64,000 bases of DNA, taken from positions 288,001-352,000 of the forward strand of contig OY970229.1 of the NCBI GenBank assembly GCA_963714085.1, read 5' to 3'. The translations under genes were made by a program, and so were the position numbers. Numbering within the stretch: position 1 is the first letter of the stretch; each line of letters begins with the position of its first letter. The notes beneath the pieces are model-generated. The model worked only from the letters and a program-made list of their open reading frames with translations, did not search any database and was not told the origin of the DNA. This document shows positions 1 through 16,581 of this stretch, one piece after another. This stretch comes from an uncultured Candidatus Micrarchaeota archaeon (GTDB lineage: Archaea; Micrarchaeota; Micrarchaeia; Anstonellales; Bilamarchaeaceae).

Positions 1-237
1 TAGAAAATCTGATATTCTAATCTCAAAGGTTCAAATCTCTGGCAGCACATACTTTGCTGCCTGTTGCGCCCTAACCACTACCCTAATTAACTTTGACGCT
101 CTCTTTTGCATGGGATTGCCTTTTGGGGGGAGTCTGAACCCTAGTAAGCTCAGACGATGATACCCATTGGCATAACTAGCAATTAAGCATTTCTACAGAG
201 CCATAAAACTTATAATCCTTAGACAAGTAAGGAAATC

Positions 238-744
238 ATGAAGAATACGCTATGCCTCATCCTATGTTTGACGTTGTTGGGTAGTGGTTGCGTATCCAAA
301 GAGGGCCCCATAACCCAGCCCACAACAGGTTCGAATGAAGTGAATTGTAATAATATCCTCACCCCCGAACTGATAATTGTTATGCTTAACGGCTCCGCCT
401 CTTGGGTGTATGGCCCGCAAATGCAACCTGGTTTTAAGTTCTCTTCAGAGTTCATGAATAACCCGCCAGTTTGTCACTATGGAAATGCCATGGGGCAGAA
501 TGTGAATCACCTCTACTGCCAACCCTACGAGCATGGAACGCATATAGTATATGCGAGTGCAGAAAGAACGAATGTGAGCAGTAATGGAACAATCAGCAGC
601 CATGAATGTTATATTATAAATGTAAATGAGCTTGCACCAGGAGACGAAACGCCTCCCGAATTTCAAGCTGAGCTTAAGATGTACCCGAATGCAATTGCGT
701 ATCAGGCGTGGGATATAGTCAATGTAACGTGTGAACCGTGCTAA
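238..744 (+). CDS. Secreted/lipoprotein-like hypothetical protein (168 aa)
   Basis: N-terminal K + hydrophobic stretch ending LLGSGC (lipobox-like); several Cys; TTATAA box ~25 nt upstream of the ATG. Confidence 0.75.
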   Translation: MKNTLCLILCLTLLGSGCVSKEGPITQPTTGSNEVNCNNILTPELIIVMLNGSASWVYGPQMQPGFKFSSEFMNNPPVCHYGNAMGQNVNHLYCQPYEHGTHIVYASAERTNVSSNGTISSHECYIINVNELAPGDETPPEFQAELKMYPNAIAYQAWDIVNVTCEPC

Positions 745-853
745 ACGAAATAATGCGACCAAAGCGGGCCGCAAATCTGGTTTTGAATGCCGACTGTCAG
801 ATTAGATTAGTACTAAGAATCAGCGTAAGCTCTGCGCAATTCAAGCTCTGAAA

Positions 854-1750
854 TTAAATCTTGAGGTGTGCTCTCAGGGCGGGAACAATTCGGTAATAAC
901 AGATGAAACAGACACCACCATAGATATAACCGAAGTAGTGAGTGAGTATATCAACAAAACTTCCATTAACGGCTGGATTTGGCGGGAATATTAATAGCGG
1001 CGATGCAAAGAAAAGAAGGACTAGGATTGTCAAAAAAAGATAATTGGCGGGGTTGTCTGTTTTTTCGGATTGTATCTGTTTCAAAATTTCGTGTATTTCA
1101 TTTTTATCGAAGTATATACACCCGATCATAAAAGCAAAAATGATGCATGGATACAGTATATTTTGGTAGTAAGGGAGATAAATGACTGCTAGAAGAAACG
1201 CAGGGTACAAGATAAAAATAAGAAGCACCCCGTCTTTCAATAAATCTTTCCCAATTTTTTTACTTGCAAACAGAACAAGAATGAATAGAGTAAAAGCAAA
1301 AATTCCAGCCTCGATACCGGATAATCCTTGAGAAGTTTGCTCCTTTTGGAAATACCCCGGGGAAACGATTGGTGAGAGGTAAGTGACTAAGAAAAAGGTT
1401 AATGCGAGAATAATTATGAGATATAAGTAATTCCGTTTTTCGTTTATCTTAGTCAGTACCAATAACTGGGGGATGACAAATAAGAAATATGCAATCAGGT
1501 TATTTGAGTAATGGGTAAAATTAGTATGGACAAAGTTTGACGTGAAATATTGCCACCAACTGGGGTTTTTCATTTGAAGGACTAGCAGATCATGGATGTT
1601 CGATGGAACAAACATCAAAAGCGTGGCTATGCATGGCAACGCCAGAATAATTGCTAAATCAATCGGGCTGATAAGACTGAGTGTACCTCGAAGTTCGGTA
1701 AATATGTTTGCGATTTTTTGTATGTTGATTGATAATTTGGGTATTCTCAT
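854..1750 (-). CDS. Rhomboid-family intramembrane serine protease
   Basis: Multi-TM protein with WWQYFTSNFVHTNFTHYSNN (rhomboid loop/TM2 H-x4-H-x3-N), GLSG (GxSG catalytic Ser) and THYFG (catalytic His, HxxG). Confidence 0.75.
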   Translation of the reverse strand: MRIPKLSINIQKIANIFTELRGTLSLISPIDLAIILALPCIATLLMFVPSNIHDLLVLQMKNPSWWQYFTSNFVHTNFTHYSNNLIAYFLFVIPQLLVLTKINEKRNYLYLIIILALTFFLVTYLSPIVSPGYFQKEQTSQGLSGIEAGIFAFTLFILVLFASKKIGKDLLKDGVLLIFILYPAFLLAVIYLPYYQNILYPCIIFAFMIGCIYFDKNEIHEILKQIQSEKTDNPANYLFLTILVLLFFASPLLIFPPNPAVNGSFVDILTHYFGYIYGGVCFICYYRIVPALRAHLKI

Positions 1751-1818
1751 AGCGGTACCCTGTTATAAGGCATGATTGGTGATGTAAAACTTTAAATTAA
1801 TGCCTGCGATTTGAGAAT

Positions 1819-1953
1819 TCATTCAGAGTTGTACCTATCCTTCAAAAACAGATACGCTAACCCTAATATAACGCCTGCCCCGGCAACAGCAAACAAACTT
1901 ACCCCCATAACCAACGCGATTGAAAGCGCGCTGGATAAAATATCCATATTCAT
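1819..1953 (-). CDS. Small single-pass membrane protein (44 aa, MNMDILSSALSIALVMGVSLFAVAGAGVILGLAYLFLKDRYNSE), not in the ORF track
   Basis: Hand-translated; GAGGT just before the ATG, TTTAAATA-type box ~35 nt upstream, long hydrophobic helix followed by KDR. Confidence 0.6.
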   Translation of the reverse strand: MNMDILSSALSIALVMGVSLFAVAGAGVILGLAYLFLKDRYNSE

Positions 1954-2036
1954 GACCTCGTTTATTTACTACTTGTTTTTTCAGTCTATTTAAATGTGTG
2001 TTAACACGTAGACATCCAAGACTGAAGAGACGGCCG

Positions 2037-2069
2037 AGACTGCGAATCTCTCGTAGAGATTCGTAGTCT
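2037..2069. repeat. 13-7-13 inverted repeat AGACTGCGAATCT-CTCGTAG-AGATTCGTAGTCT
   Basis: Arms are reverse complements with one mismatch; a related copy lies at 2927-2959. Confidence 0.85.
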
Positions 2070-2165
2070 GAGCTTTGACTACATGCCCCATATTCAGATT
2101 ATTATTCCATTCAGAATATCTTTAACAGTAATATTAATATAATCGGAATATCATACGGGTATATT

Positions 2166-2897
2166 ATGGTCATGGAACGCAAGGGCTCCCGACGGCACCA
2201 AAAAACCGGATTCCTCGGATTGTTCAGGAAGAAGCTGAAGAACAAAAAACAATGGAAAGCGGATTGCGACTGGAAGGTCAGCGGAGAGAAGGACGGCATT
2301 GTTTATTACGCGGTGATAGACTTCCGTTTAAAAGAAAAAAGCGGATTGCTTTTCGATGAGAACGGGGTGGCTTACCATAAGGCCAGGTTCGAGGCGGACA
2401 CGGGCTTTGACGCGATCGATGGCGAGGATCACAGGACTTTCGATAGGGAACTTGTAGGGAATACCTGCTTGGCGAGCGGAATGATGAACCGATGCAGCCA
2501 ACTGCTGGAAGACACCTATACGGTCATGCCAAAGAAAGGCGCGAAAACCTGGAGGGAGTTTCTCGTATATTTCAACAGAAATAAGAGAAGGATTTGCGAT
2601 GAGGTGAACGAGATAGTGTCCGAGGCCGAGTACGCCGGTGATGTTTACGGTAAGAAAAAGCAGAGCAAAGACAAGATAATCAATGAGATTGCAAGGAAAA
2701 CCTTTGAACCGATAGAACCCTCAACGCTGGACCGATTTGATGTCTTCAAGGCGTGGTATACCGAAAAACTGAGGGGTCTGGATTATGCGAATATGGCCAA
2801 CAGAGTGGAATGGAAAGAAGAAGGGAAGATACGGGCGCTGGTAGTACGGGAATTAGAGGAACATGGATTTGTGAGAACAAAAGAAGAAAAACGATGA
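2166..2897 (+). CDS. Hypothetical cytoplasmic protein (243 aa)
   Basis: Long ORF with plausible charged composition; AT-rich promoter-like region upstream; no motif recognised. Confidence 0.7.
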   Translation: MVMERKGSRRHQKTGFLGLFRKKLKNKKQWKADCDWKVSGEKDGIVYYAVIDFRLKEKSGLLFDENGVAYHKARFEADTGFDAIDGEDHRTFDRELVGNTCLASGMMNRCSQLLEDTYTVMPKKGAKTWREFLVYFNRNKRRICDEVNEIVSEAEYAGDVYGKKKQSKDKIINEIARKTFEPIEPSTLDRFDVFKAWYTEKLRGLDYANMANRVEWKEEGKIRALVVRELEEHGFVRTKEEKR

Positions 2898-2913
2898 ATC
2901 GGGATTTCTTGCC

Positions 2914-2959
2914 GAGATTCGCAATCTGATTGCGAAACTTTATCAGAGATTCACAGTCT
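2914..2959. repeat. Second copy of the 13-7-13 site (TGATTGCGAAACT-TTATCAG-AGATTCACAGTCT, 2927-2959) plus an extra arm GAGATTCGCAATCT
   Basis: Same geometry and orientation as 2037-2069; arms differ by 3 and 2 nt. Confidence 0.75.
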
Positions 2960-2976
2960 GATTATGGATCCCTAGA

Positions 2977-3801
2977 TTAATTTTCAAAGACTTCGAACTC
3001 TTGCATATACCACCAATGAGTTCCATCTGTTTGATCTGCGGTAATTCGCAGGTATCTGGCATCAACTGAAGTGAAATTGTATTGAATTGGAACTTGTGGG
3101 GGACTCGAAGTTTCAGTTACTAACCTAGTCCAGTTATTACCGTCAAATGAATAATCAATATGCCACTTGACCGGGAAGTCAGACCATGAAGCGCCAGGAT
3201 TTGCGTATATCACAATTCTTCCAACGTTTGTTTGCGAACCGAGATCAACCTCCCACCAATTACCTGCATAATTAGCAGTGTTGGTTGCAAAACGATGCGC
3301 ATCCGTGTAAGTTGTAATATCGCCGTCTAGTGCCCCTTCCGCAGTTTGACTGTTTATGCTAGCTGTTGCGGTCTTACCTAACGCAAGATTAGTTCCTTGT
3401 GTTGTTATATCTGTACTTCGATTATACGAAATGCCTTGCTCTGTTTGAGACGTGGATATATTTGTTTCGTTATTCTGTTCTGAATTAATATTCGAAGAGC
3501 TACTAGCTTGTGTTTGGGCTGTTGGACAATCTCCACATTTGCTACATCTATATGATTGAATCCTCTTTTGTAAGGCTGGACTACCCCCACCGTATTCAAG
3601 TAAATCACAAACTTCTTGGCAATGGTCCTGATTTAGACCCGAGTCAGTCCGATTAACCATGCATAGAGCAACACAATAACTATTATCACTGTCGAGTATC
3701 CCTCTTCCAGGGCAATTTAAGCCAGTTTTCGAAGAGCTACCAGTGCATCCAAAAACTAAAAACAAACTTACCAAAATAAAAATAATGCAGATTTTATTCA
3801 T
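2977..3801 (-). CDS. Lipoprotein-like protein with C-terminal discoidin (F5/8 type C) carbohydrate-binding domain
   Basis: Signal ending VFGC; Cys-rich region; S/T/N linker; NLALGKTATAS...ALDGD...WWEVDLG...YSFDGNNW...ARYLRI...EFEVF is the F5/8C pattern. Confidence 0.85.
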   Translation of the reverse strand: MNKICIIFILVSLFLVFGCTGSSSKTGLNCPGRGILDSDNSYCVALCMVNRTDSGLNQDHCQEVCDLLEYGGGSPALQKRIQSYRCSKCGDCPTAQTQASSSSNINSEQNNETNISTSQTEQGISYNRSTDITTQGTNLALGKTATASINSQTAEGALDGDITTYTDAHRFATNTANYAGNWWEVDLGSQTNVGRIVIYANPGASWSDFPVKWHIDYSFDGNNWTRLVTETSSPPQVPIQYNFTSVDARYLRITADQTDGTHWWYMQEFEVFEN

Positions 3802-4012
3802 ACGTTCTCCCTCAATAAATGATAATGCTCGGTTGTTTAAATATTTGCGTAGTCGACCTGTAGTAAGAGCTAACTCTGATTTTACGAATTTGACGCTTAA
3901 TTCCCTTGTATTTCCCTATAATTTCCCTAATCCCACGTCTGAGAGCTTTTTAACATGGAAATATCCACTGTCTCATTCAAGAATTTTATAACACCTAAAA
4001 TCCAACTATATC

Positions 4013-4216
4013 ATGGCTGACCCGTCTGTGATCGTGGATAAACTGCTCAATTACCTTTCAAAAGAACCGGCCTCAACCCACCAGATCGTATGCGCTACGA
4101 AGCTGCACAACCAAACCGTTAAGAAATACCTCCGGATAATCGAGGATGTCCAGAATTCGCCGAAGTTGAAGAAAGAAGTGCGCGGAATACGGGTATTTTT
4201 CAGAAAAGACGTTTAA
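4013..4216 (+). CDS. Small winged-helix DNA-binding protein (67 aa)
   Basis: LLNYLSKEPASTHQIVCATKLHNQTVKKYL helix-turn-helix followed by a beta-wing (GIRVFFRK). Confidence 0.65.
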   Translation: MADPSVIVDKLLNYLSKEPASTHQIVCATKLHNQTVKKYLRIIEDVQNSPKLKKEVRGIRVFFRKDV

Positions 4217-4385
4217 GTCATTTTTGGTGAAAAATAACATATTTTCAGGTAAAATATGTGAAAACACACATAGATTTTGCTCCCATTATATCGCTATAGC
4301 ACTTCAAAACGTAGTTTTCAAGAAACATTTATAAACATTTTCATACACAATAGATATTAGGGTAAAATGATCGAAAGGTCATGGG

Positions 4386-5468
4386 ATGGGTTTCCAACCA
4401 ATCGCAACGGAGGTTTCCAGCAAAAACCGGATACTCCTAGATGAATTGGCCCTTACGTCCAGGTTCTCTAATAAAAACAGCCTTGGTTGCCGCCAGTTGG
4501 CCGGAGAACGCGTCCTGGAAGCGATAAAACGGCTTCCTGAGGGTCATCCGTCCGAGAACCTATTCATCTGCGGTCCTTCGGGTTCGGGCAAAACCGCCCT
4601 GGTCAGGTGGGCTGTGGACAAAATGGAACAAACTCAAAGGATATTATGTATATACTCCAACTGCCACAGATACAACACCTCGATGTCCATATTTACCAGG
4701 ATTGCGGATGCTTTGGGCGAACCGGTTTCAAGAAGGGGGCGGGCAGTCGATGAGATATTCGACCATATTGTAAAGCTCATGCGCTACTCAAAGAAGCCCG
4801 TCCTTCTCGTTCTTGATGATATTGAAGCGCTTGTCCAGTACGATGGCGCCCGGATACTCCAGAATATCGCGCATTTGGAGGAAGAAAACGTCCATTTCGC
4901 CATTATCGGGATATCCGATAACGAAACCGCGCTTTCGAAGCTTCCGCAAGAAACCCGCGAAGTACTAAGGTTCACAAAAGTAGAGATTCCCCAGTTCACT
5001 CGCGAGGAGCTGCTGGCCCTTCTTAAGGAACGTGCATCCATGGGTTTGCGGCCTGGTTCTTACGACAGTTCGCTGATAGAAGCAATAGCGGGCATAAGCG
5101 AGGCGGTCAATGGAGGAGGTCGTTTCGCTCTTGAAATCTTATGGAGGGCTGCGAGAAGTTCGGAGGAACGGGGACTTGACTCGATACCCCAGCAGGAACT
5201 GGAACGCATAAAGGACAGCTTAGGGCTCCAAGAACGGGAGTTATCCCAGGGCGAGCTTGAAATAGTCAGATTGCTCAAGGACGGCCCTAAAACATCCTCG
5301 ATGCTTTACGCATTGTTCTGGAGGAAAATATCGAAATCCCAGCGGCAGATACGCAACTACATTCATTCCATGGAAGAAAAGGGCATTGTCGAGACCCGAT
5401 TTGTGCGAGGCAAGTACAACTACGGCTCAACGATCATACAACTTAGCGGAGGCTGGGAGCATGACTAA
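4386..5468 (+). CDS. cdc6: Cdc6/Orc1-like replication initiator AAA+ ATPase (island-encoded)
   Basis: NLFICGPSGSGKT Walker A, IYSNC, LVLDDIE Walker B, IIGISD sensor 1, ELLALLKER and R-x-ALEIL-x-RAA helices, C-terminal wHTH. Confidence 0.85.
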   Translation: MGFQPIATEVSSKNRILLDELALTSRFSNKNSLGCRQLAGERVLEAIKRLPEGHPSENLFICGPSGSGKTALVRWAVDKMEQTQRILCIYSNCHRYNTSMSIFTRIADALGEPVSRRGRAVDEIFDHIVKLMRYSKKPVLLVLDDIEALVQYDGARILQNIAHLEEENVHFAIIGISDNETALSKLPQETREVLRFTKVEIPQFTREELLALLKERASMGLRPGSYDSSLIEAIAGISEAVNGGGRFALEILWRAARSSEERGLDSIPQQELERIKDSLGLQERELSQGELEIVRLLKDGPKTSSMLYALFWRKISKSQRQIRNYIHSMEEKGIVETRFVRGKYNYGSTIIQLSGGWEHD

Positions 5469-5640
5469 CGGGTTAATGATATCGAAAACGAGAGTTAAGA
5501 TGTTTCTCAAGAAGCAGGATATGCGAGTTTCGGAGAATTTTTACCGGGCTTTGGATGATGAGATTCAAGCTATCCTTTTGAAAGTGACAAAGCGAGCCAA
5601 GAGCGATAAACGCACAACCGTTCTTGCGCGTGATGTTTAG
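5461..5640 (+). CDS. Minimal histone-fold protein (59 aa, alpha3-truncated type)
   Basis: MTNGLMISKTRVKMFLKKQDMRVSENFYRALDDEIQAILLKVTKRAKSDKRTTVLARDV: RVS loop 1, long alpha2, terminal RxTxxxxD; ATG overlaps the cdc6 3' end. Confidence 0.8.
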   Translation: MTNGLMISKTRVKMFLKKQDMRVSENFYRALDDEIQAILLKVTKRAKSDKRTTVLARDV

Positions 5641-5779
5641 CACAAATAACCGACGATATTTATAGCAATTGCGAATTCAATTGTTCTAAGCCTTAAAACG
5701 CTTGAATCCAGCCGCTGGTGGGCCTGTTTTTTCGCCTTTCCGACAATTGCAAATCGCAATTGTTCATACGATTTGGGCG

Positions 5780-8035
5780 TCAATTCGCTTGAATTCGCTC
5801 AGAAACTCGTGCGGAATTATTGAATAATCTATCGAGGGTTTCTTTAATTTCAGTTCGAAGTATGACGTTGCCGTAAGGATCATAAGTTGATTTAAGCTCA
5901 CGGTTCGTCACCAAAATATAGTAAGTTTTGAACTCGGCTTTAACCTTATCGAATTTCTGTTTCAATGTTTTTTCCTCATCGTGTGAACCTGTTTCAACTT
6001 CAAACGCTATGTTCTCCTTGTCAAAAACAACCACGTCCGGCTTGACGGTATCATAGAGTAACGCGTTCTTTCCGTACTTCTCAATCTCCATCTGCAGTAT
6101 CCTGCAAAAATAGTAATGCTCCGGCCCCTGATTGGTTGGGGGCTTGACGAGCGTTTTTTGTCCTTTGCCCGGGCCAAACGGATTCGTGTCCAATTCAACA
6201 TAGCCGTGTTCCCTGCACATCCTGGCCTGCTCCTCGGTCAGATCCTTGACGAAGAAAAAACCCTCCCTGAGATTGAACCGCTTGGGTGGCCGTTGCACCG
6301 GCCTGTCTACGGTCTCGATTTTCCCGCTCGTTTGCTTCGGATCGGTGGTGAACAGGTTGTGCATGATCTCCGGTACCGTTATCTGGAACTTGAAATTCCC
6401 CTCCTCGCTTAACAGCAGGCCACTCCCCTTGTTGCATTTTATCAGGTAATCCCTTTCCTCTGCGTTCAGCTTCAGCGAGGCGCTAATAGCCTCTATGTTG
6501 CTGGTGCTCTGCTTCATCAGGATTTTCGTGGCCGACAGGTTGAGTATAGATTTTCCCGCGTCCGCCTTGTCGAAGTCCTCTATCTCCTGGGTTATGAATC
6601 CGAGCCCGACCCCGTATTTTCTCGCCGCCTTGATGTATTCAAGGACGTAATCCTCGGCGTTCTTGCTGCGCAGCAGCCCCCAGCCCTCGTCTATGAAGAT
6701 GAATTTCGGGGCCTTGTCCGCCTTCATCCTGCGCGAAACGAAGCCGAGGATGATGAACATGGCCAGGGGTTTAAGCGGCATCGGGATTTTACTCAAATCG
6801 AAGTTCACGATCCTGGCCTTCAGTTCCACGTTGGTGCGCCGGTCAAGGAAAGCGAAGAACCCGTTTTTGGAGTACATCGAAAGCCTGTTGACCAGAACCT
6901 CCAGCGTCCGGATATCTCTCGACCCCTTTTTCCTCTCCTTGTACATCTTCACGCTTTCGTCGTAAACGTCCGAGAACGTGGGCGGCTCGTTCTTCCAGGT
7001 CTTCTCTTCGAGCGGCAATATTCCGGATTCCTCGTAAGCCCTCGGAAGCAGCCGGTTGAGCGCTCCCTTCTGCGATTCCGTGAGGCCGCCGACTATTATG
7101 TCAAAGGCGGCTATCAGTTCCAGCATTTTTGCCTGGAAGCTCTGGTCGCCCAAATCGAACAGGTTGATGCTGTCCTCGGAATCCTGCGCTATCTGGACGT
7201 TCTGCCCTCCCAGCGACGCCACTGTTCCCGCATATTCGGCGTTCGGGTCTATGATGAATATGTCCGCTCCGGCATTGAAGAGGATCTGGACTATGAGGGA
7301 TTTGGCTGTGTAGCTCTTGCCCGAGCCGCTGGTTCCAAGGATGAAGAAGTGCTTGTTGCTGTACTTGTCAAAGTCCAGGTGTATCCTGTTGAGGGTTTCC
7401 AGCTCGTTCCCAAGGAAAACCCCCACCTTATCGGGTTTTGCCGGAGATATGAACGGGAATGTGGCCGCCAGGGAGTTGGTGGGGAATTCCTGCTGCACTC
7501 CCAGCTTGTCAGTGCCCAATGGGAGGCAGGAGCGCAGCGCCGGGGCCATCCGGAAATTGGCTGTTTTCGGTATGATCATTATGGCGTTCATGTTGGCCTT
7601 GCATTTTTCGGTCAACAGGTCGAGCTTGTCCAGGGAACTCTCCTTGTTGTTCACGTACAGCGACACGCGGAACAGCTTCTCCTCGCCCTTGTACAAGAGC
7701 TCGTGCAGATGCCGGGTGTCCGACAGCTTGATCTCCAGCGCCGGATTGGGCGTGCCTTTCTCCGTGCTCATGAACAGGTCTGCGGTCTGCTTGTTGATCT
7801 GGTCGTAGAGGAATATTATCGTCTGGTCTATGCTTGAGGGCTCGATGTGCAGGGAAATGTCGTAATTCTCGTTCTTGGACAGGAACGACCTGAGCCAGCC
7901 ATCATCTATTTTACGCGGGTACCCCACCGCTTCGATGACGCGGTAATAATATTCGTTCACCTTCGCATAATCCTTGCGGACCTCCATGTACGAGGGCATT
8001 ATGAGGCAAGTGAGAAGCTCGTCGTCGTTTATCAT
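5780..8035 (-). CDS. virB4: VirB4-like type IV secretion ATPase with C-terminal extension
   Basis: NKHFFILGTSGSGKS Walker A, IIDPNAEY, IFIDEGW Walker B, ARKYGVGLGFITQ, ILMKQ; N-terminal half resembles VirB4/TraC. Confidence 0.85.
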   Translation of the reverse strand: MINDDELLTCLIMPSYMEVRKDYAKVNEYYYRVIEAVGYPRKIDDGWLRSFLSKNENYDISLHIEPSSIDQTIIFLYDQINKQTADLFMSTEKGTPNPALEIKLSDTRHLHELLYKGEEKLFRVSLYVNNKESSLDKLDLLTEKCKANMNAIMIIPKTANFRMAPALRSCLPLGTDKLGVQQEFPTNSLAATFPFISPAKPDKVGVFLGNELETLNRIHLDFDKYSNKHFFILGTSGSGKSYTAKSLIVQILFNAGADIFIIDPNAEYAGTVASLGGQNVQIAQDSEDSINLFDLGDQSFQAKMLELIAAFDIIVGGLTESQKGALNRLLPRAYEESGILPLEEKTWKNEPPTFSDVYDESVKMYKERKKGSRDIRTLEVLVNRLSMYSKNGFFAFLDRRTNVELKARIVNFDLSKIPMPLKPLAMFIILGFVSRRMKADKAPKFIFIDEGWGLLRSKNAEDYVLEYIKAARKYGVGLGFITQEIEDFDKADAGKSILNLSATKILMKQSTSNIEAISASLKLNAEERDYLIKCNKGSGLLLSEEGNFKFQITVPEIMHNLFTTDPKQTSGKIETVDRPVQRPPKRFNLREGFFFVKDLTEEQARMCREHGYVELDTNPFGPGKGQKTLVKPPTNQGPEHYYFCRILQMEIEKYGKNALLYDTVKPDVVVFDKENIAFEVETGSHDEEKTLKQKFDKVKAEFKTYYILVTNRELKSTYDPYGNVILRTEIKETLDRLFNNSARVSERIQAN

Positions 8036-8902
8036 TCAGCGCACCTCCTTATCCGTGTTGAACGAATCATAGATCGTTATCCTGGAAAGATAGTCGTCGC
8101 CTATCTCGACATAGCCCTCGAAATACGACATGAGCAGCGATATGAGCTGGTTGTTCGTCAATCGTATGGCAACGAGCCCGCAGTAGCCCAGCCGTTCCTG
8201 TATCAACTCGGCCCGAAGATTCAGCTCCTTTACCTGGTCGTCCTCCTTGATTCGCCTGGTCATTGTGCGCTTATTTTCCAATGGGACTACGACGTAGTAG
8301 ATGCGCTCCTTTATGGCATGGCTTTCTATGAATTCGGTTTCGTATTTCCGGAATTCCTCGTATAGTTTCTTGAGGTTTTTAGCCCCGGACTTTTCTATGC
8401 GGGAATACTGGGCTGAATAATCCGGCTTCACGGAATTGACTGTGCGGACGATTATCTGTATCGGGAACGTGAGCTGGTTGAGGAATTCCCTGTAATTGAG
8501 GATCAGGGAGCGCTTTCTGGAATCGTCCATCAGCTCGAAGTTCACCGGCTTCACCAATACCACGGCGCGGAGCTCGCCGTTTTTCAGGAACATGGCGTTT
8601 CTTTCGATTTTTTTGACTTCTATGAACCCCTTCACCTTGGCGTCTAGGTACCCGCCAAGCCGTATGTCGGTCATGAACCCCAGCCAGGTCAGCAACTTGG
8701 TTTCTAAGTCGAAAATGGCGAAGCATACGCCAATCAACACGAATATCGATACCAGTGCGATTCTGGCTTCCTCAGGCAACGGCAAGCGATACGCCAAAGC
8801 AGCGATGACGAGGAACAATACGATGTACCCGAATTGCTTCAAGTCGAGATTGAGGAATATTTTCTCCTTGTATCTGATTGTGTCAGGTATGTCGTAACCC
8901 AT
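8036..8902 (-). CDS. PrgI/VirB3-like membrane protein fused to a TraC/VirB4-N-like domain
   Basis: YDIPDTIRYKEKIFLNLDLKQF then two TM helices (PrgI-like); VKPVNFELMD...FLNQLTFPIQI; probable ATG at 8902 with GTGAT RBS; abuts virB4. Confidence 0.65.
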   Translation of the reverse strand: MGYDIPDTIRYKEKIFLNLDLKQFGYIVLFLVIAALAYRLPLPEEARIALVSIFVLIGVCFAIFDLETKLLTWLGFMTDIRLGGYLDAKVKGFIEVKKIERNAMFLKNGELRAVVLVKPVNFELMDDSRKRSLILNYREFLNQLTFPIQIIVRTVNSVKPDYSAQYSRIEKSGAKNLKKLYEEFRKYETEFIESHAIKERIYYVVVPLENKRTMTRRIKEDDQVKELNLRAELIQERLGYCGLVAIRLTNNQLISLLMSYFEGYVEIGDDYLSRITIYDSFNTDKEVR

Positions 8903-8906
8903 AGTA

Positions 8907-9860
8907 TCACAGGAATGCAAGCAGCATGGCAACCTTCCAGCCTATTGATACAGCCGCGTTCAGGACGCGTAAAACGACCGGTACGAGCGAAAACACCGCC
9001 AATAGGTAGATCAACACGTTCACGAGCCCGATAAGCCCAAAACCAAGCATCAGGGCTATTCCCTGCACGAATCCACCGGCCAATACCGGATCCCCTGAAT
9101 TGAACAGGTATGTTAATGCGAGGATAAGCACTGCGTCAATGCTCGTCATGAAGATGATTATTACGATGAATTTCAGCATGAACAGGCCCCATTCCCTTGT
9201 GAACGGGATGAAATAGAGGAAAATCGCTATGGGAAACAGCAAAAGCAAGAAGGGAATCATCAAATAACGAATTATCAGGGTGAAGAACGTCAGGGCCGCA
9301 GCTGACAGGAAATTGAATGAAAGCACCATGGCGAACACAAGCGAGGAGAAAACGACCTGTATGCTCAGGAGATTGGCGAATGACGAATCGTATATTGACG
9401 TAGTTATGTACTGATTCAACTCGACAATCATCTTGAAGATGCTGAAGGAAAACGCGAGGGCGATAATGAGATATAGGACATTCTGGATCCAGAGTTTCGC
9501 CTTCGCACGTTTTTCAACATCCGCTGCCGTAGCGATATAATACGCACCAACCCCCATGAGCGCAAGGGTGTAAAGGCTCTCAAGAATGCTCATGATCTTC
9601 GCGTATGGAGTGCAGAAAAGGTCCAGATTAGGCCCGGTCACAATGAAAATCAACGAGTTATCGAGAAATTCCTTTGCCGAATATACGAATCCACTAACCA
9701 GGGAAGAGAAAAACTTCTCAACTATGCAGGTCGGCAGGTTGAAGATGACCTGAAGAAAGTTGGCATTATCCGGGCAGGATTGGTTAGTTATACTCACGTC
9801 AATGGAAGCGGAGTAAACGATTGAACTAATTACCAGCAATAAAACCAGGTACTTAAGCAA
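8907..9860 (-). CDS. VirB6/TrbL-like polytopic membrane protein
   Basis: Signal peptide, about 6 TM helices, LIIRYLMIPFLLLLFPIAIFLYFIPFTREW pattern; operon context. Confidence 0.7.
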   Translation of the reverse strand: MLKYLVLLLVISSIVYSASIDVSITNQSCPDNANFLQVIFNLPTCIVEKFFSSLVSGFVYSAKEFLDNSLIFIVTGPNLDLFCTPYAKIMSILESLYTLALMGVGAYYIATAADVEKRAKAKLWIQNVLYLIIALAFSFSIFKMIVELNQYITTSIYDSSFANLLSIQVVFSSLVFAMVLSFNFLSAAALTFFTLIIRYLMIPFLLLLFPIAIFLYFIPFTREWGLFMLKFIVIIIFMTSIDAVLILALTYLFNSGDPVLAGGFVQGIALMLGFGLIGLVNVLIYLLAVFSLVPVVLRVLNAAVSIGWKVAMLLAFL

Positions 9861-11010
9861 CAGGCATCACCCTCTTGACGGTTAGATAGATGACGTATAC
9901 GACTATGGCGAACAAAGCGGCATCGAACAAAGAATCGAAGAAACCAGGCTGGATTGGTTCGACTTTCGGGATTTTCGGGCTATTGGAGAGGTTCGAGTTA
10001 TTGCAGCCGAAGATGGTTTTCGATGAGAAATGGTCGGCTATCGTAAAGGAGCAATTCGCGGAATATGGGGCCAATATCGTAAAATTGGATCCATTCTGCT
10101 CCAAAACACTAAGCCCGTAAGCCGAAGTCTTGTTTGCCGGAACGATTTCTTTGACAAGAATGTTGTACGGCCCCTCATCCCTTATCGTGTAGAGGTACTT
10201 CGTTTCGTAGAAGCTGGAATTCCCTATGCGAAAAAACACGTTGGAATCGTTCGCTTTGATCCTGATTTCCGTTAGGTTGTTGTAGTATGCCAGAATCGCA
10301 TAATTCGAGGTCGGATTGAAGGGCACATATTTGATGTTTTTGGAATCCGAAACAGTCAGAGAATCCTTGAAACTGGCTGTGATGTAGTAATCGCAGCTAA
10401 CCGAACAGCTGTGACGGGAGCAATGTCTTATCAAGGTATAGCGATCCACCAGATATTCGCTTCGGACCGTGAGGTAAGCGGTCATTGCCGAGCTCGTATT
10501 TTGGACTGAGATTGAATAGTCGTACCCGCAAATCCTGAATTTATCATTACAATCTCCTGGTAGCATTCTAGTATCGACAACGAAACTGAAACTCTGCCTT
10601 ATCAACGGCTGGCTGGAGGCATTTACAAGATAAGTTCCATTATCGTAGACTGAGGGATCCAAGTAAGCAATGCTAATCCAGGCATCCTTGATATTAGCCG
10701 AACTTTTGGAGGCATTTGGAGGGTATTTTCCGAATCGGATAGCGTTATTCCATTGCCATATTTGATCAAAAGAGTCGTTAGTTATGGATTCGGCTATGAA
10801 AAGCTTCTTGTCCTCGGTGGTATTGAACGCATTTGATAATAGGCAGATTTCGCCGAAATTCCAGTCGCAGTAGTGGAGAATCGTATCAGCGGGTTTTGAT
10901 GGCGCGGAATAGGCGGTCGCAACAGTATAATCGTGATAGGGGTAACTAGGACAGCTCGGGACCGCTACGGATAGGCCAATCAAGAACAGGAAAAATACGG
11001 CCTTATCCAC
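9853..11010 (-). CDS. Secreted Cys-containing protein with C-terminal TM anchor (T4SS operon)
   Basis: Signal peptide, many N-x-S/T sequons, C-terminal hydrophobic helix + KR; overlaps both neighbours. Confidence 0.75.
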   Translation of the reverse strand: MDKAVFFLFLIGLSVAVPSCPSYPYHDYTVATAYSAPSKPADTILHYCDWNFGEICLLSNAFNTTEDKKLFIAESITNDSFDQIWQWNNAIRFGKYPPNASKSSANIKDAWISIAYLDPSVYDNGTYLVNASSQPLIRQSFSFVVDTRMLPGDCNDKFRICGYDYSISVQNTSSAMTAYLTVRSEYLVDRYTLIRHCSRHSCSVSCDYYITASFKDSLTVSDSKNIKYVPFNPTSNYAILAYYNNLTEIRIKANDSNVFFRIGNSSFYETKYLYTIRDEGPYNILVKEIVPANKTSAYGLSVLEQNGSNFTILAPYSANCSFTIADHFSSKTIFGCNNSNLSNSPKIPKVEPIQPGFFDSLFDAALFAIVVYVIYLTVKRVMPVA

Positions 11011-11221
11011 AATAATGACCTCCGGAGAACATGGAGCCGATTAAAGGGGCAAGATAGACGATGCAGAGGCCGATGATCACGCCCAGGATTACGTCTTTCC
11101 ACTGCTTTCGGAATATCGGATCCTGGCTGATGGTCAGCATAAGGCCGGAATACGCAATCATCACGATCCCGGCGACTGTGGCTAATAGCTTGATGCTGTC
11201 CGCTATGGCCTCAAGGGTCAA
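11003..11221 (-). CDS. VirB2/TrbC-like pilin (72 aa)
   Basis: Two TM helices joined by a charged loop (AYSG...QDPIFRKQWKDVILGVIIGL...LAP). Confidence 0.7.
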   Translation of the reverse strand: MTLEAIADSIKLLATVAGIVMIAYSGLMLTISQDPIFRKQWKDVILGVIIGLCIVYLAPLIGSMFSGGHYCG

Positions 11222-11222
11222 G

Positions 11223-11531
11223 CTACCACCCGCAGATACCCGAGGAATTGACCAGGTTCTTGACCAGCACCGGGGCCAGCCAGATGATGACCAGGCCGAT
11301 TATAACCCCGCTTAATAGCGCCTTGGCCGCGTTTCGCTCTGTCATCTCGTGCGAGCTCGCAAGGGTGAACCCCGCGTATGCGGCTACAAGAACGCCAGCT
11401 ACCGTGCCAAAAACCTGAATCATGTTGTAAAGCCGGCAGACGGGCTGATCGCTCGGAATGACCAGATCCGCGAAGCTCAAACCTAACAAAAGCAGGCCTA
11501 TGGCTAGATATTTCCTATTCAACCGTATCAC
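11223..11531 (-). CDS. VirB2/TrbC-like pilin with leader peptide (about 100 aa)
   Basis: Leader + two TM helices, AYAG...ERNAAKALLSGVIIGLVIIWLAP; clear paralog of the adjacent pilin. Confidence 0.75.
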   Translation of the reverse strand: MIRLNRKYLAIGLLLLGLSFADLVIPSDQPVCRLYNMIQVFGTVAGVLVAAYAGFTLASSHEMTERNAAKALLSGVIIGLVIIWLAPVLVKNLVNSSGICGW

Positions 11532-12339
11532 CTCGTATGATTATCCTGAATTCGGGATTTTTCTTCTGAAATCCGATTTTCGACTTGATGAAATCCAGAT
11601 AAGCCGGATTGATCTCGTACCCTATGGATTTCCTGCCCAGGTTTCGAGCTGCACGGATGGATGTGCCGCTGCCGAGAAATGGATCCAGGCAGGTTTCGCC
11701 TTCATAGGTGTACAATCTGATCAAGGCTTCTGGAAGCGCGATGGGAAACATGGCCGGATGGTCGTCCTTGTTATGCTTATTCTTGGTTTCCGGGACCATT
11801 TCCCAGATATCATTGCCCCAATGGGATCTGGCATACTCCAAATCGATCTTTGAGGCGGCTTTTTCCTCTTTTGAGATTCTTTTGAAGTCGAATTTGCCCT
11901 TTCTGAAAACAAGGATATGCTCGTAGATGTTGTTCGGATAGTAGTACATCGGATAGGGATGTTGGATGAACGTCCCGAACCGCTTGGAGCTTCCCAGGCC
12001 CGAAGGCTTCTTCCAGAGGATATCTTCCCGGTATTCAAAGCCGCTTTTCTGGAGAATGCCTACGAAATGGCATGGGATGGGGTACTTCTTCTCCCCGCTG
12101 ATGATGTCCGAGATGTTCACGCAGATGTAACGGCCGTTGTCAAGGACGCGGTAGCATTCTTTGAATATCTGGTACATGGCCCGGAGGTAGGCCTCGTATT
12201 CGTTGATGGAGCCGATGTTCTCGGTTCCATAGTCCTTGACATTGAAATAAGGCGGGCTGGTTACAATGAGCTGTATCGAGCCGTCCTTTATCTCAGCCAT
12301 GTTCCGCGAATCGCCGATAACCACGGTGCTTTGGGCCAT
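11515..12339 (-). CDS. N4-cytosine/N6-adenine DNA methyltransferase (beta class)
   Basis: GDS, LIVTSPPY catalytic motif IV before HPAMFP and DPFLGSGT SAM-binding motif I, IGYEIN. Confidence 0.92.
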   Translation of the reverse strand: MAQSTVVIGDSRNMAEIKDGSIQLIVTSPPYFNVKDYGTENIGSINEYEAYLRAMYQIFKECYRVLDNGRYICVNISDIISGEKKYPIPCHFVGILQKSGFEYREDILWKKPSGLGSSKRFGTFIQHPYPMYYYPNNIYEHILVFRKGKFDFKRISKEEKAASKIDLEYARSHWGNDIWEMVPETKNKHNKDDHPAMFPIALPEALIRLYTYEGETCLDPFLGSGTSIRAARNLGRKSIGYEINPAYLDFIKSKIGFQKKNPEFRIIIRGDTVE

Positions 12340-12550
12340 GGCTACATAGATATCTCATTGGGCTATTTTATGATTGATGCGAAATTTGATGGCGGGATGA
12401 GAAAAGAAGATTTGTTGTAACGAGCTGGACCGAACTACTCTCCAGTTCAGCTATGTTTCGGGGCATGTCACTCAGTCAGTGATCATTAGCTGATGTTATA
12501 CGACGATTAGCACGGAGTGTAGAGAAGAAATGACAACTATCTGATTAGCA

Positions 12551-13576
12551 TCAGTCACTTACATCCTCCGCTTCTAGAGACAATTCGAGTATGTAATCAT
12601 AAAATCTCTTTTTGAGATGCCCCCGTTCTATCCTATGATAATCTTTGGATAGGCTCGTAAGCAACAGGATAAGATCTGATCTTACTTTCGGAATTGCCTC
12701 TTCAAATGGAACTGCTAAAGATACCTCGCTCCACCTGACAAGGAAGTAGTATATCCTATAAAACTCGCCTAAAAACTGGGAAAATGTATATTCATTTCCT
12801 CCGATTACAACGAATTTTCTTTCGCCTGAGTCATAGAAGATATTGGAATGAGAAATCTTATCTCTAAAAATTTTTGAGGTCTGCCCTTTACCGAATATAG
12901 ACCTATTTTCAAGTGGTATCGCTAGCACTTCTTCTAAAACATGATTTATGAGCCCCACAGTGGCATGTTCACCATTACCTCTATTGATTTGCCCCATAAA
13001 TTGTTTAGTTTTATCTTTGAATTTTAACTTACCGTTCTGTTCAGTTAAATACCAAAATAATTTCCTATCCACACTGAATGCAATTAACTCGTATAAATTA
13101 ACAAATGTCCAAAGTAATACTGGTGCCAGCAGAATTTCAGGGATTGCGGATTTTCTATTCTCTATTTCACTTACTACTTCTGAAAGGAAAAATAGTTGAC
13201 CGGATAGTTCTAAAAAATCTTCAAGTTTTGTTGATTGAGTAGAAACTAAAAAAGCTATGACTTTTTCATCATCGCCACTTGTAATATACCGATTTTCCTT
13301 ATTTATCTTTTCAGATGTACTTCTTGTAATATCAATGAAGGTCGATAATTGTTCTGTATTAAGTACTATGTCGATATTATTTGCACAGTTCGAAAAATAA
13401 TTTGAGACAACTATTGGCGATCTAGATAAAAGTACTTTTTCTAAACGGAAAAGGAATTCATTATGGGTTAGTCGTGATGGAAATGCAATATAATCTTTTT
13501 GTGCAAGATATTTGATAAATTGTCCTTCTTCCATAATGATGTTATATTGGTATCTGAATTTAACACTACCCGGCAT
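12551..13576 (-). CDS. Hypothetical helical protein with RxxxxH motif (HEPN-like); true start may be the ATG at 13534
   Basis: 341-aa AT-rich ORF; FRDKISHS motif in the C-terminal third; next to an RM locus. Confidence 0.6.
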   Translation of the reverse strand: MPGSVKFRYQYNIIMEEGQFIKYLAQKDYIAFPSRLTHNEFLFRLEKVLLSRSPIVVSNYFSNCANNIDIVLNTEQLSTFIDITRSTSEKINKENRYITSGDDEKVIAFLVSTQSTKLEDFLELSGQLFFLSEVVSEIENRKSAIPEILLAPVLLWTFVNLYELIAFSVDRKLFWYLTEQNGKLKFKDKTKQFMGQINRGNGEHATVGLINHVLEEVLAIPLENRSIFGKGQTSKIFRDKISHSNIFYDSGERKFVVIGGNEYTFSQFLGEFYRIYYFLVRWSEVSLAVPFEEAIPKVRSDLILLLTSLSKDYHRIERGHLKKRFYDYILELSLEAEDVSD

Positions 13577-13664
13577 CGGCTCGTATCTTCTTCTTTTCTA
13601 GGGAAGGTGTTGTTCCTAAAGAGTACTGATTTATTCCTTCGCTGCACATATTTTGCAGAATACT

Positions 13665-14072
13665 ATGGCCGATGTCCTAACAAAGAAGCAAAGAAGCTAC
13701 AATATGTCCAGAATCAGGGCTGTGGATACTAAACCGGAACTCACCTTACGGCATTTTCTTTATGCTGCGGGCATGCGGGGTTATCGTCTCCACTATCCTC
13801 TCTTAGGCAAACCAGATGTCGTTTTTGTGAAAAAGAAGGTTGGAATATTCATAGATGGCTGTTTTTGGCATAACTGCCCGAATGATTTTGTTGTCCCAAA
13901 AACACGACGCGCATTCTGGCTTAAAAAAATTAATGGCAATGTTAAACGCGATAAAGAAGTTAATGTCAAACTGACAATGATGGGGTGGAAAGTCATCCGA
14001 ATCTGGGAGCATGAGATAATGCATTCGCCTAAAGCAGTTCTATTAAGAATCCGAAACCTCATCGGAGAATAA
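13665..14072 (+). CDS. vsr: Very short patch repair endonuclease
   Basis: MADV...RSYNMSRIRAVDTKPE, GKPD, IFIDGCFWHNCP, FW..KI..NVKRD, GWKVIRIWEHE. Confidence 0.95.
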   Translation: MADVLTKKQRSYNMSRIRAVDTKPELTLRHFLYAAGMRGYRLHYPLLGKPDVVFVKKKVGIFIDGCFWHNCPNDFVVPKTRRAFWLKKINGNVKRDKEVNVKLTMMGWKVIRIWEHEIMHSPKAVLLRIRNLIGE

Positions 14073-15065: not shown

Positions 15066-15075
15066 AATCGCGCCT

Positions 15076-16155: not shown

Positions 16156-16351
16156 ACAGGTACTTACATTTTAGTTCTTATAAAGATTAGTTTTCGGGCA
16201 ACCTTGCTCCTGAATAAGCCAAATGACCACTTAAACGGGCAAAACAAAGCGGACTACCGAGTATTTAGGTTTTTAAGCCAGTCAGATTATCAATTCATCA
16301 ATATTTGAGAAATCATCAAATAAGCAAAAAAAGATCCTAACTCCGAGGTTA

Positions 16352-16373
16352 TGACCCCGGGGAGATTTGAACC
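16352..16373 (-). other. Isolated tRNA 3'-end fragment GGTTCAAATCTCCCCGGGGTCA (att-like relic)
   Basis: T-loop + 5-nt T stem + 7-nt acceptor strand + discriminator; no 5' half upstream; followed by a hairpin and T-run. Confidence 0.6.
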
Positions 16374-16581
16374 GTACAGTTGGGTCCGAAATGGTTTGAT
16401 TTGAGTCCTAGACGCGACACTTGCTTCCAAGCCTCTCTTTTTAACCTCTGCTCTTCAGATGAGGATTCGGCAAGAACGGACCCCTCTGGCTCAAACTGAG
16501 ACCAGATCTGAACGCGCTAGGGCAGGATTTGAGACCAGCTCTGAGGACACCACCAGGGTAAGACCTCAGAGCAGATCAGAA

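What the first reader, a model, noticed from the sequence alone, without database searches (positions are those of the whole stretch)
2037..2959. Single unknown gene bracketed by two directly oriented 13-7-13 palindromic sites (recombinase-cassette geometry)
Seen: AGACTGCGAATCT-7nt-AGATTCGTAGTCT upstream and TGATTGCGAAACT-7nt-AGATTCACAGTCT downstream of ORF 2166..2897. Both spacers end in AG, and the downstream site has a third arm. The arm core GAGATTCG also occurs in the tRNA-Leu T arm (16592-16599). Established: tyrosine recombinase sites (dif, lox, att cores) are 11-13-bp inverted arms around a 6-8-bp spacer. Inference: a mobile one-gene cassette like pdif modules or integron cassettes, possibly handled by a tRNA-targeting integrase or XerA.
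Basis: partly seen in the sequence, partly recalled or inferred. Interest (0 to 1): 0.7.

Follow-up and report, generated by a model that had tools for sequence, protein, structure and literature searches.

The report
Palindromic site array around an orphan gene
An orphan gene inside a 20-kb mobile element of a small archaeal genome sits between copies of a 13-base palindromic protein-binding motif found nowhere else in that genome, and one copy recurs almost unchanged in a sister element among unrelated genes, so the motif is real and selected but is not shown to be a recombinase cassette.

Summary
The sites exist and are far from chance. The arm AGATTCGCAGTCT (at most 1 mismatch) occurs 4 times in the 1.57-Mb genome, all within 923 bases (about 1.5 expected).

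The anatomy is richer than "two 13-7-13 sites". There are at least five half-sites in alternating orientation: L-7-R upstream (2037-2069) and R.L-7-R.L downstream (2915-2971, 32-nt period). Orientation cannot be assigned, and the tRNA octamer match is chance.

The locus lies in the variable cargo region of a ~20-kb element inserted at tRNA-Leu. That element carries a tyrosine integrase, Orc1/Cdc6 and type-IV-secretion-like genes.

The gene with its own promoter (2102 to about 2927) recurs at 82% DNA identity on one metagenome contig, in another context and without the arms. A sister element (G114) holds one site whose R.L core is 25/26 identical, and its flanking genes are unrelated on both sides.

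Best reading (0.4): a lineage-specific protein-binding array, independent of the neighbouring genes, into which the orphan gene unit was inserted. A cargo-capture recombination site is the main rival (0.3).

Membership of pdif or XerA modules, integron cassettes and IS200/IS605 elements failed. No excision, empty site or binding protein was shown.

The parts
2037..2069 (.). Upstream dyad: L arm 2037-2049, spacer 2050-2056, R arm 2057-2069. Effectively 15-nt arms around a 3-nt centre.
   Evidence: (I6: 15 nt, 93%). RNA fold of the + strand is -27.4 kcal/mol, z -4.2.
1982..2024 (.). Two extra outer half-arm hexamers: CAGTCT at 1982-1987 and AGACTG at 2019-2024. They bracket the TATA-like box (about 1986-1996, minus strand) of the small-TM/rhomboid operon.
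   Evidence: AGACTG occurs 5 times in 3,033 bases against 0.94 expected, and 1 of 200 shuffles reaches 5. Sequence read. The promoter assignment is my inference.
2070..2101 (.). 32-nt filler between the upstream dyad and the orphan gene unit. It is neither an arm nor homologous to L001.
   Evidence: 8/32 identical to L001 in the fixed register, which is the null level.
2102..2165 (+). Conserved promoter/leader of the orphan gene. It contains GAATAT repeats 32 nt apart and an AT-rich TATA-like stretch.
   Evidence: 50/64 identical to L001. Repeats D4 and I13.
2166..2897 (+). Orphan gene, 243 aa, basic, with no family assignment.
   Evidence: No hit in Pfam, PHROGs, PADLOC or NCBIfam, and no PDB match below E 0.29. 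One homologue in 5.8 billion and 1.84 billion proteins. dN/dS 0.28. AlphaFold2 model unusable, pLDDT 36.6.
2895..2927 (.). Unit L0-7-R1: weak left arm 2895-2907 (overlaps the stop codon), spacer 2908-2914, R1 arm 2915-2927.
   Evidence: (D1). The stretch 2898-2927 is still 16/30 identical to L001 in the fixed register (null 7.5 +/- 2.4; 0.14% of offsets reach 16).
2915..2939 (.). R1.L2 dyad, 12-1-12, 11/12 complementary. Both arms carry the same CAATC variant.
   Evidence: (I25).
2927..2959 (.). Arms 9/13 complementary.
2946..2971 (.). R2.L3 core, GAGATTCACAGTCTGATTATGGATCC. This is the part conserved in the sister element.
   Evidence: 25/26 identical to G114:C1:27416-27441. Found in only 2 of 176 genomes of the order.
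1..16594 (.). The part of the ~20-kb low-GC integrated element that lies in the window. The whole element is genome 284569-304594, i.e. window -3431 to 16594.
   Evidence: 43-bp perfect direct repeat at both ends. GC profile. Gene content. Sister element at the same tRNA.
16552..16665 (-). Right-hand att repeat (16552-16594), overlapping the 3' end of tRNA-Leu(gag) at 16582-16665.

Best explanation
The 13-nt arms are half-sites for a sequence-specific, probably dimeric, DNA-binding protein of this mobile-element lineage. They form an alternating array (L-7-R, with R and L abutting). Like-oriented arms lie 32 nt apart, about three helical turns, so bound dimers would sit on one face of the DNA and could bind cooperatively.

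The array acts independently of the neighbouring genes and lies in the variable cargo region of a ~20-kb tRNA-Leu-integrated, conjugation-type element. The orphan gene with its own promoter (2102 to about 2927) was inserted into or beside this array, so parts of the array now lie on both sides of it.

The present two sites are not a matched pair for excision.

Shown: the arms, their uniqueness, the element, the independent history of the gene unit, and the conserved core in a sister element.

Inferred: protein binding, selection on the arms, and insertion into a pre-existing array. Which protein binds, and to what end (element maintenance, transfer or silencing), is not known.
For: (1) Sequence is conserved, not structure.
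- Five arms keep the same 13-mer. By my count they differ from the consensus by 0, 1, 1, 1 and 3 bases.
- The 7-nt spacers share only 3 of 7 bases.
- In the sister element the R.L core is 25/26 identical, while the L-7-R hairpin there keeps only 7/13 pairs (my count from the sequence).
- Backbone DNA of the two elements is only 65-80% identical. The synonymous divergence of the gene from its L001 copy is dS 0.53. The arms are therefore better kept than neutral DNA.

(2) The site is independent of its neighbours.
- It lies between divergent genes at 2037-2069, between convergent genes at 2915-2971, and between divergent, unrelated genes in G114.

(3) The period is regular: 32 nt (D1).

(4) It is not a general feature of the genome.
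- Arm counts outside the locus are at chance level.
- The 33-nt palindrome occurs in 1 of 176 genomes of the order. The 26-mer occurs in 2 of 176. G114 has only one true copy.

(5) The gene unit has its own history.
- 82.5% DNA identity to L001 over 2102-2879, with a sharp left border at 2102 and no arms in L001.

(6) More distant relatives (G084, G085) have integrase, a small gene and the wHTH gene contiguous, with no cargo and no arms there. Their conserved AT-rich region upstream of wHTH/orc1 is the likelier replication origin, so the array is not needed for the backbone functions of that wider family.
Against: - No binding protein is identified. The orphan protein has no recognisable fold or family.
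- An insertion landing exactly in a roughly 100-bp array is a coincidence that a recombination mechanism would explain more naturally.
- A site kept while the DNA on both of its sides was replaced is also what a recombination junction predicts.
- The only two elements with the array are also the only two of the four compared that carry cargo at this place. This fits a capture site as well.
- Only two elements carry the site, so all comparative statements rest on n = 2.
Confidence: 0.4

Rival explanations
1. Cargo-capture recombination sites. The arms would be core sites of a tyrosine recombinase, most simply the element's own 399-aa integrase. The orphan gene unit would have entered as a circle carrying its own site (R1.L2-7-R_up) by recombination with the resident site. 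Further cargo would have been exchanged at the same site in the sister element, in a two-step way like pdif modules.
For: - The 13-7-13 geometry fits.
- A tyrosine integrase is encoded 4.1 kb away: 73.4 bits to PF00589 and a distant XerA-like score of 102.8 bits.
- The gene unit is independently mobile.
- Residual similarity of the L001 copy to the stretch 2898-2927 (16/30) would fit a decayed 3' site travelling with the gene.
- The sister element has one site with unrelated DNA on both sides.
- Relatives without the site have no cargo at this place.
- pdif sites within one plasmid also carry different spacers (PMC13141974, Table 1 passage).
Against: - Only one gene is bracketed. At least five other cargo genes here and four in G114 have no arms at their junctions.
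- The L001 copy has no arm on its left (8/33 and 8/32 identical).
- Spacers of the two flanking sites share 3 of 7 bases.
- Five alternating arms with abutting R.L dyads are not the form of a recombinase core.
- The left flank of the G114 site is not significantly like the flank of the upstream site (p 0.27). G114 is therefore not a demonstrable empty site.
Confidence: 0.3
2. Transcription-level hairpins. The palindromes would act in RNA, or as cruciforms, as terminators or insulators that isolate the orphan gene from its neighbours. The downstream set would serve as a bidirectional terminator between the convergent genes.
For: - The upstream unit folds strongly on both strands: -27.4 and -22.1 kcal/mol, z -4.2 and -3.7. 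Its single mismatch is a G.U on the + strand.
- The downstream set lies between convergent genes.
Against: - The scan found no terminator-like site at either place.
- The downstream region folds no better than shuffles (z -1.7 and -0.9).
- The hairpin is not kept in G114, while the sequence of R.L is.
- Strong palindromes are not a general intergenic feature here: 4 with arms of 11 or more in the 20-kb element and 23 with arms of 12 or more in the genome.
- Rfam gave no match at E up to 1.
Confidence: 0.08
3. Relic without present function: decayed terminal repeats of a small transposon-like insertion, or a target duplication made when the gene was inserted.
For: - The flanking units are only 76-77% alike.
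- L0 and L3 are degenerate.
- There is no other copy in the genome.
Against: - The R.L core is 25/26 identical in a sister element whose backbone is only 65-80% identical.
- The arms are much better kept than the spacers.
- The genome has no Y1 transposase and no serine recombinase over the cut-off.
Confidence: 0.1

Closest known systems
pdif (dif) modules of Acinetobacter plasmids (XerC/XerD)
   Same: One or a few genes are bounded by short palindromic recombinase-type sites, and the spacers differ from site to site (PMC13141974, abstract and passages read).
   Different: - pdif is 11-6-11 with two distinct arms that give it an orientation. Modules are bounded by inversely oriented sites that mimic the chromosomal dif and use the host XerCD. 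A plasmid carries many modules.
- Here the sites are 13-7-13 with near-identical arms, so no orientation can be read.
- The chromosome holds no such site, and no XerA equivalog was found.
- Only one gene is bracketed.
Integron gene cassettes with attC, including the archaeal integrons of Ghaly et al. 2022 (PMC9668308)
   Same: A single gene lies between imperfect palindromes, and there is a possible decayed site at the 3' end of the travelling gene unit.
   Different: - Cassettes are usually promoterless (recalled) and stand in arrays beside an IntI that carries an IntI-specific domain (PMC9668308, passages read).
- Here the gene has its own promoter and there is no array.
- The integrase scores 44.7 bits against the 265-bit cut-off for integron integrases.
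- The arms lack the attC core motifs (motifs recalled from memory; sequence read).
Archaeal Xer/dif (XerA; Cortez et al. 2010, PMC2958812)
   Same: Imperfect inverted arms lie around a short spacer, and the enzyme would be a tyrosine recombinase.
   Different: - Archaeal dif is 11-6-11, present once per chromosome in the termination region, and conserved among relatives (passages read).
- This motif lies inside a mobile element.
- It is missing from 174 of the other 175 genomes of the order.
- The genome shows no XerA over the cut-off.
Cooperative operator or centromere-like arrays of plasmids, and Tn3-family res sites (recalled from general knowledge, not looked up)
   Same: Several half-sites in mixed orientation stand at helical phasing. 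Dyads of one arm type have different spacings (12-1-12 and 13-7-13), as in the subsites of res.
   Different: - The element has no partition ATPase that I could recognise.
- The genome has no serine recombinase over the cut-off.
- No binding protein has been identified.

Membership tests
pdif / dif module (Xer-dependent) | Sites mimic the host's chromosomal dif (11-6-11). | tested here: not met
   The sites are 13-7-13. No other arm with at most 1 mismatch and no paired site exists in the 1.57-Mb genome.
pdif / dif module (Xer-dependent) | A host Xer recombinase is present. | tested here: not met
   NF040815 (XerA): the best of 3 matches is 113.6 bits against a cut-off of 220. The three matched open frames are 408-449 aa long. 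Genome completeness by markers is 87.65%.
pdif / dif module (Xer-dependent) | Modules are bounded by inversely oriented, asymmetric sites, with several modules per replicon. | tested here: inconclusive
   Orientation cannot be read (76% direct against 77% inverted). Only one gene is bracketed.
Integron cassette / attC | An integron integrase with the IntI-specific domain lies nearby. | tested here: not met
   TIGR02249 scores 44.7 bits against 265, and NF011946 scores 35.9 against 435.
Integron cassette / attC | An attC-type folded site with conserved core motifs, in arrays of at least two sites. | tested here: not met
   The arms contain no GTT...AAC-type cores (motif recalled; sequence read). 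Rfam gave no match at E up to 1, but I do not know whether Rfam holds an attC model.
Tyrosine-recombinase core site (lox/FRT/att type) | Inverted arms of 11-13 bp around a 6-8-bp spacer. | tested here: met
   The upstream centre is itself partly palindromic (15-3-15).
Tyrosine-recombinase core site (lox/FRT/att type) | Partner sites share the same overlap sequence. | tested here: not met
   CTCGTAG against TTATCAG: 3 of 7 identical. Against CTTGCCG: 4 of 7. The G114 spacer is CGGGTGG.
Tyrosine-recombinase core site (lox/FRT/att type) | A cognate recombinase binds and cuts the site. | not testable with these tools
   It needs gel-shift and in vitro recombination assays.
IS200/IS605-type element or its passenger derivative | A Y1 HUH transposase that recognises subterminal hairpins. 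| tested here: not met
   PF01797: 0 matches in the genome. The orphan protein has no Pfam match over any cut-off.
Intrinsic terminator | A G+C-rich stem followed by a run of T. | tested here: not met
   One search lists no such site at 2037-2069 or 2895-2971.
Archaeal origin boxes (ORB / mini-ORB) | Repeats flank an AT-rich unwinding region beside the orc1/cdc6 gene and are conserved with the initiator. | tested here: inconclusive
   The arms lie 1.4-2.3 kb from orc1 with cargo genes between them. Relatives with the same initiator module lack the arms. A different conserved AT-rich region lies directly upstream of wHTH/orc1 in all four elements.

The most novel reading that the evidence does not exclude
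A mobile-element lineage of DPANN (Micrarchaeota) archaea carries its own short recombination site: 13-nt arms in L-7-R / R.L arrays. Single, promoter-bearing gene units would be captured and swapped at this site by the element's tyrosine integrase. That would be an archaeal system analogous to pdif modules or integron cassettes but unrelated to both in sequence.
Probability: 0.27. Interest if true: 0.75.

Novelty: new variant of a known kind. Interest (0 to 1): 0.45.

Why it matters
How the mobile elements of DPANN archaea pick up and exchange cargo genes is unknown. This locus pairs a short, selected DNA site with a junction of unrelated cargo in two sister elements, and in one of them the site brackets a gene that also travels elsewhere.

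If the site is a recombination site, it would be a new gene-capture system in archaea. If it is a binding array for maintenance or control of the element, it gives a defined DNA target with which to find the protein. Both outcomes can be tested with a 33-bp oligonucleotide and three or four element proteins.

Tried and rejected
READS.
- One run (X1, probably the source sample) holds the locus, as Logan contigs at a word depth of about 1.3-5.8 over the 6 kb laid. There was no joint, and one contig bridges 2513-3533. X2 and X3 do not hold it. This says nothing about excision.

PUBLIC SCANS.
- A degenerate palindrome pattern gave one hit each in genome contigs (a bacterial MAG) and viral contigs. 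Both are unrelated chance matches.
- A degenerate R.L pattern gave 0 hits in viral contigs.

HOMOLOGUES OF THE ORPHAN GENE.
- 0 loci in genome contigs and 0 in viral contigs.
- 0 of 40 relatives.
- The 2155-aa hit P0003 is an artefact of summed weak matches to an Ig-repeat protein.

STRUCTURE AND FEATURE SEARCHES.
- The AlphaFold2 model has pLDDT 36.6, so no fold search was made.
- The ESM Atlas best score is 0.86, below the level at which it is more than a lead.

EMPTY-SITE SEARCH THROUGH THE NEIGHBOURING GENES.
- Rhomboid: 1 distant match (28% identity) in 175 other genomes of the order.
- F5/8-type-C protein: 0 of 400 genomes of the phylum.

G114 AS AN EMPTY SITE.
- The left flank is not significantly similar (p 0.27; empirical 0.18).
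- With arm and spacer included, p is 0.035.

OTHER IDEAS TESTED.
- Similarity of the arms to the att regions: only 6-10-nt words, none convincing.
- A lone arm-like 13-mer at 497-509 lies inside a coding region with no partner, so I take it as chance.
- An L3-like 12-mer at 2096-2107 was not significant in the alignment test (p 0.13).

Full report
THE OBSERVATION

The sequence is as described:
- Upstream: AGACTGCGAATCT (2037-2049), CTCGTAG, AGATTCGTAGTCT (2057-2069).
- Downstream: TGATTGCGAAACT (2927-2939), TTATCAG, AGATTCACAGTCT (2947-2959).
- A further arm, AGATTCGCAATCT, lies at 2915-2927.
- ORF 2166..2897 (243 aa) lies between them.

The arm is not a common word.
- Against the consensus AGATTCGCAGTCT, the whole 1,571,539-base genome holds 4 matches with at most 1 mismatch, all within these 923 bases. 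About 1.5 are expected genome-wide.
- At 2 mismatches there are 31 against 28.3 expected. At 3 mismatches there are 307 against 335.
- No other L-spacer-R or R-L pair exists in the genome.
- The upstream site is the longest of only 23 palindromes with arms of 12 or more.

CORRECTIONS TO THE ANATOMY

The upstream 'spacer' pairs at its ends, so the site is a 15-3-15 dyad (I6). It folds at -27.4 kcal/mol, z -4.2. 'Spacers ending in AG' is thus part of the arm.

Read directly, the upstream and downstream units are 76% alike; read inverted, 77% (D1 and I1). A direct orientation cannot be claimed.

Downstream the arms alternate, and R and L overlap by one base:
- weak L0 (2895-2907), 7 nt, R1 (2915-2927);
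- L2 (2927-2939), 7 nt, R2 (2947-2959);
- weak L3 (2959-2971).

The period is 32 nt. R1 and L2 form a 12-1-12 dyad, 11/12 complementary, and both carry the same CAATC variant (I25).

Two more copies of the outer hexamer AGACTG/CAGTCT (1982, 2019) flank the TATA-like box of the minus-strand operon. That is 5 copies in 3,033 bases against 0.94 expected.

The GAGATTCG word in the tRNA-Leu T arm is at chance level: 4 in the window against 3.16 expected, and 3 of the 4 are the sites themselves.

CONTEXT

The window starts inside a low-GC island. GC there is 0.35-0.55 against 0.573 for the genome.

A 43-bp perfect direct repeat bounds it at genome 284569-284611 and 304552-304594. The second copy overlaps the 3' end of tRNA-Leu(gag). 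Imperfect similarity between the two ends reaches further out.

The 20,026-bp element encodes:
- a 399-aa tyrosine integrase with a zinc ribbon;
- a small wHTH protein;
- Orc1/Cdc6;
- a VirB4/TraG-like ATPase;
- PrgI- and TrbC/VirB2-like proteins;
- two DNA methylases and a Vsr nuclease.

I did not check the taxon.

Other recombinases in the genome:
- Two further tyrosine recombinases, at 1.288 and 1.309 Mb.
- No XerA over the NCBIfam cut-off; the best score is 113.6 against 220 bits.
- No serine recombinase over the cut-off.
- No Y1 transposase.

THE GENE

The 243-aa protein has no match in Pfam, PHROGs, PADLOC or NCBIfam and none below E 0.29 in the PDB.

It has one homologue among 5.8 billion proteins: P0002, 75% identical. 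A search of 1.84 billion representatives added only an artefact.

The gene is real: dN/dS is 0.28 and dS is 0.53. The structure model is unusable, with pLDDT 36.6.

The homologue lies on the 7,777-bp metagenome contig L001, among unrelated genes that include two Holliday-resolvase-like nucleases. DNA identity is 82.5% over window 2102-2879.

In the fixed register of that alignment, identity to L001 is:
- promoter 2102-2165: 50/64;
- filler 2070-2101: 8/32;
- upstream site 2037-2069: 8/33, so the left border is sharp;
- after the stop codon, 2898-2927: 16/30 (null 7.5 +/- 2.4; 0.14% of offsets reach 16);
- 2928-2960: 13/33;
- 2961-2990: 8/30.

The travelling unit is therefore promoter plus gene plus some 3' flank. 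L001 has no arm with fewer than 3 mismatches.

RELATIVES OF THE ELEMENT

The VirB4-like ATPase finds 43 other genomes among 400 of the phylum at E up to 1e-40. One of them, G114, has a copy that is 84% identical.

G114 carries a sister element at the same tRNA. The integrase DNA is 80% identical and the backbone 65-78%.

Between the integrase and the wHTH gene the two elements differ completely.
- Here: about 5.9 kb holding two unknown genes, a 168-aa gene, a small-TM/rhomboid operon, the orphan gene and an F5/8-type-C protein.
- G114: about 2.9 kb holding two HNH-type genes, a 217-aa gene and a zincin-like gene.
- There is no protein-level similarity between the two regions.

Inside this unrelated DNA one island stands out. 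Window 2946-2971 equals G114:C1:27416-27441 at 25 of 26 bases (E 2e-6 and 1.5e-5). This is R2 plus L3.
- In G114 the island lies between divergently oriented genes, and its left arm is degenerate.
- Only these 2 of 176 genomes of the order hold the 26-mer.
- Only 1 of 176 holds the upstream palindrome.
- G114 has no further true copy.

Two more distant relatives (G084 and G085, ATPase about 53% identical) have the integrase, a small gene and the wHTH gene contiguous, with no cargo and no arms. The AT-rich stretch directly upstream of the wHTH gene is conserved in all four elements. It is the better candidate for the replication origin.

WHAT IT MOST LIKELY IS

Three points suggest a protein-binding DNA site rather than a folded strand:
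- The arms are kept while the spacers are not (3 of 7 shared).
- The R.L core is kept across elements whose backbone is only 65-80% identical.
- The hairpin is not kept in G114: 7 of 13 pairs, counted.

The site also sits in three different gene contexts (divergent, convergent, divergent with unrelated genes). That argues against an operator of a particular gene and against a terminator. The terminator scan found nothing at these places, and the downstream region folds no better than shuffles.

My best reading (0.4) is a binding array that acts independently of the neighbouring genes, specific to this element lineage, into which the orphan gene unit was inserted.

The main rival (0.3) is that the array is a recombination site at which cargo is captured.
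- For it: this explains the bracketing and the unrelated DNA on both sides more naturally. It also fits the fact that the relatives without the site have no cargo there.
- Against it: only one gene is bracketed. The only homologue has no arm on its left. The spacers differ. Five alternating arms are not the form of a recombinase core. G114 cannot be shown to be an empty site (left flank p 0.27).

COMPARISON WITH KNOWN SYSTEMS

pdif modules. These are 11-6-11 with distinct XerC and XerD arms, and modules are bounded by inversely oriented sites. [quoted passage not shown]

Archaeal dif. This is 11-6-11 and present once per chromosome (PMC2958812, passages).

Integron cassettes. They need an IntI with its specific domain and attC arrays (PMC9668308, passages).

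The defining features that I could test are not met (see the membership test). The resemblance is one of geometry only.

A full-text search for DPANN, integrated, VirB4 and conjugative (listing and abstract starts only) returned nothing that describes such sites. That is one search and no proof that the sites are not in print.

VERDICT

The motif is real, rare and apparently selected, and a sister element supports it. The function is unresolved and the cassette reading is possible but unproven. Interest is moderate.

Noticed in passing
window 1-16594 (whole element: genome 284569-304594): A 20,026-bp low-GC element is integrated at tRNA-Leu(gag), bounded by a 43-bp perfect repeat. It carries a tyrosine integrase with a zinc ribbon, Orc1/Cdc6, a VirB4/TraG-like ATPase, PrgI- and VirB2-like genes, and methylase/Vsr cargo. 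Relatives of the ATPase occur in 43 of 400 other genomes of the phylum.
   Followed up: partly
L037/L038 (G114:C1:23633-45235): A sister element sits at the same tRNA-Leu with 65-80% identical backbone DNA. Both cargo regions are entirely different: between integrase and wHTH, and between the methylase region and the tRNA.
   Followed up: partly
L003 6652-6673 (window -3348 to -3327); L037 5688-5707: A palindrome (CTGATGTCAAA/TTTGGCATCAG here, TGATGTCAAA/TTTGACATCA in G114) lies just upstream of the integrase gene and is conserved in both sister elements. It may be an integrase operator or an arm-type site.
   Followed up: no
window 3880-4012; L037 10850-10920; L042 9640-9790; L041 5025-5195: The AT-rich region upstream of the wHTH/orc1 module is conserved in four elements. 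It holds a tandem ATTTCC(C/T)TA repeat, and in G084/G085 an 8-1-8 palindrome GAATTAAG-G-CTTAATTC. It is a candidate origin or operator of the replication module.
   Followed up: no
window 1819-1953 (minus strand): A 44-aa hydrophobic ORF with a GAGGT box ahead of its start lies directly upstream of the rhomboid-like gene (854-1750). The two probably form one operon.
   Followed up: no
window 2100-2152: The orphan gene's promoter holds a 21-nt direct repeat 32 nt apart (TATTATTCCATTCAGAATATC / TATTAATATAATCGGAATATC). Its GAATAT cores are kept in the L001 copy, so this may be the gene's own operator.
   Followed up: no
L003 7904-8062 (window -2096 to -1938); L037 7849-8007; L042 about 9450-9550: A short conserved stretch follows the integrase gene in the elements compared. 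It appears to encode a small minus-strand protein (tblastx 57% over 53 codons between G000 and G114).
   Followed up: no
genome 1288185-1288691 and 1308830-1309330: Two more tyrosine recombinase genes of the same score class lie 20 kb apart in a region with low-GC patches and two strong palindromes (1285481, 1314909). This may be one or two further integrated elements.
   Followed up: no
L001 3475-4463: The contig that holds the only homologue of the orphan gene carries two adjacent Holliday-resolvase-like nuclease genes (PF10107) just upstream of it. It may itself be a mobile element or a virus fragment.
   Followed up: no
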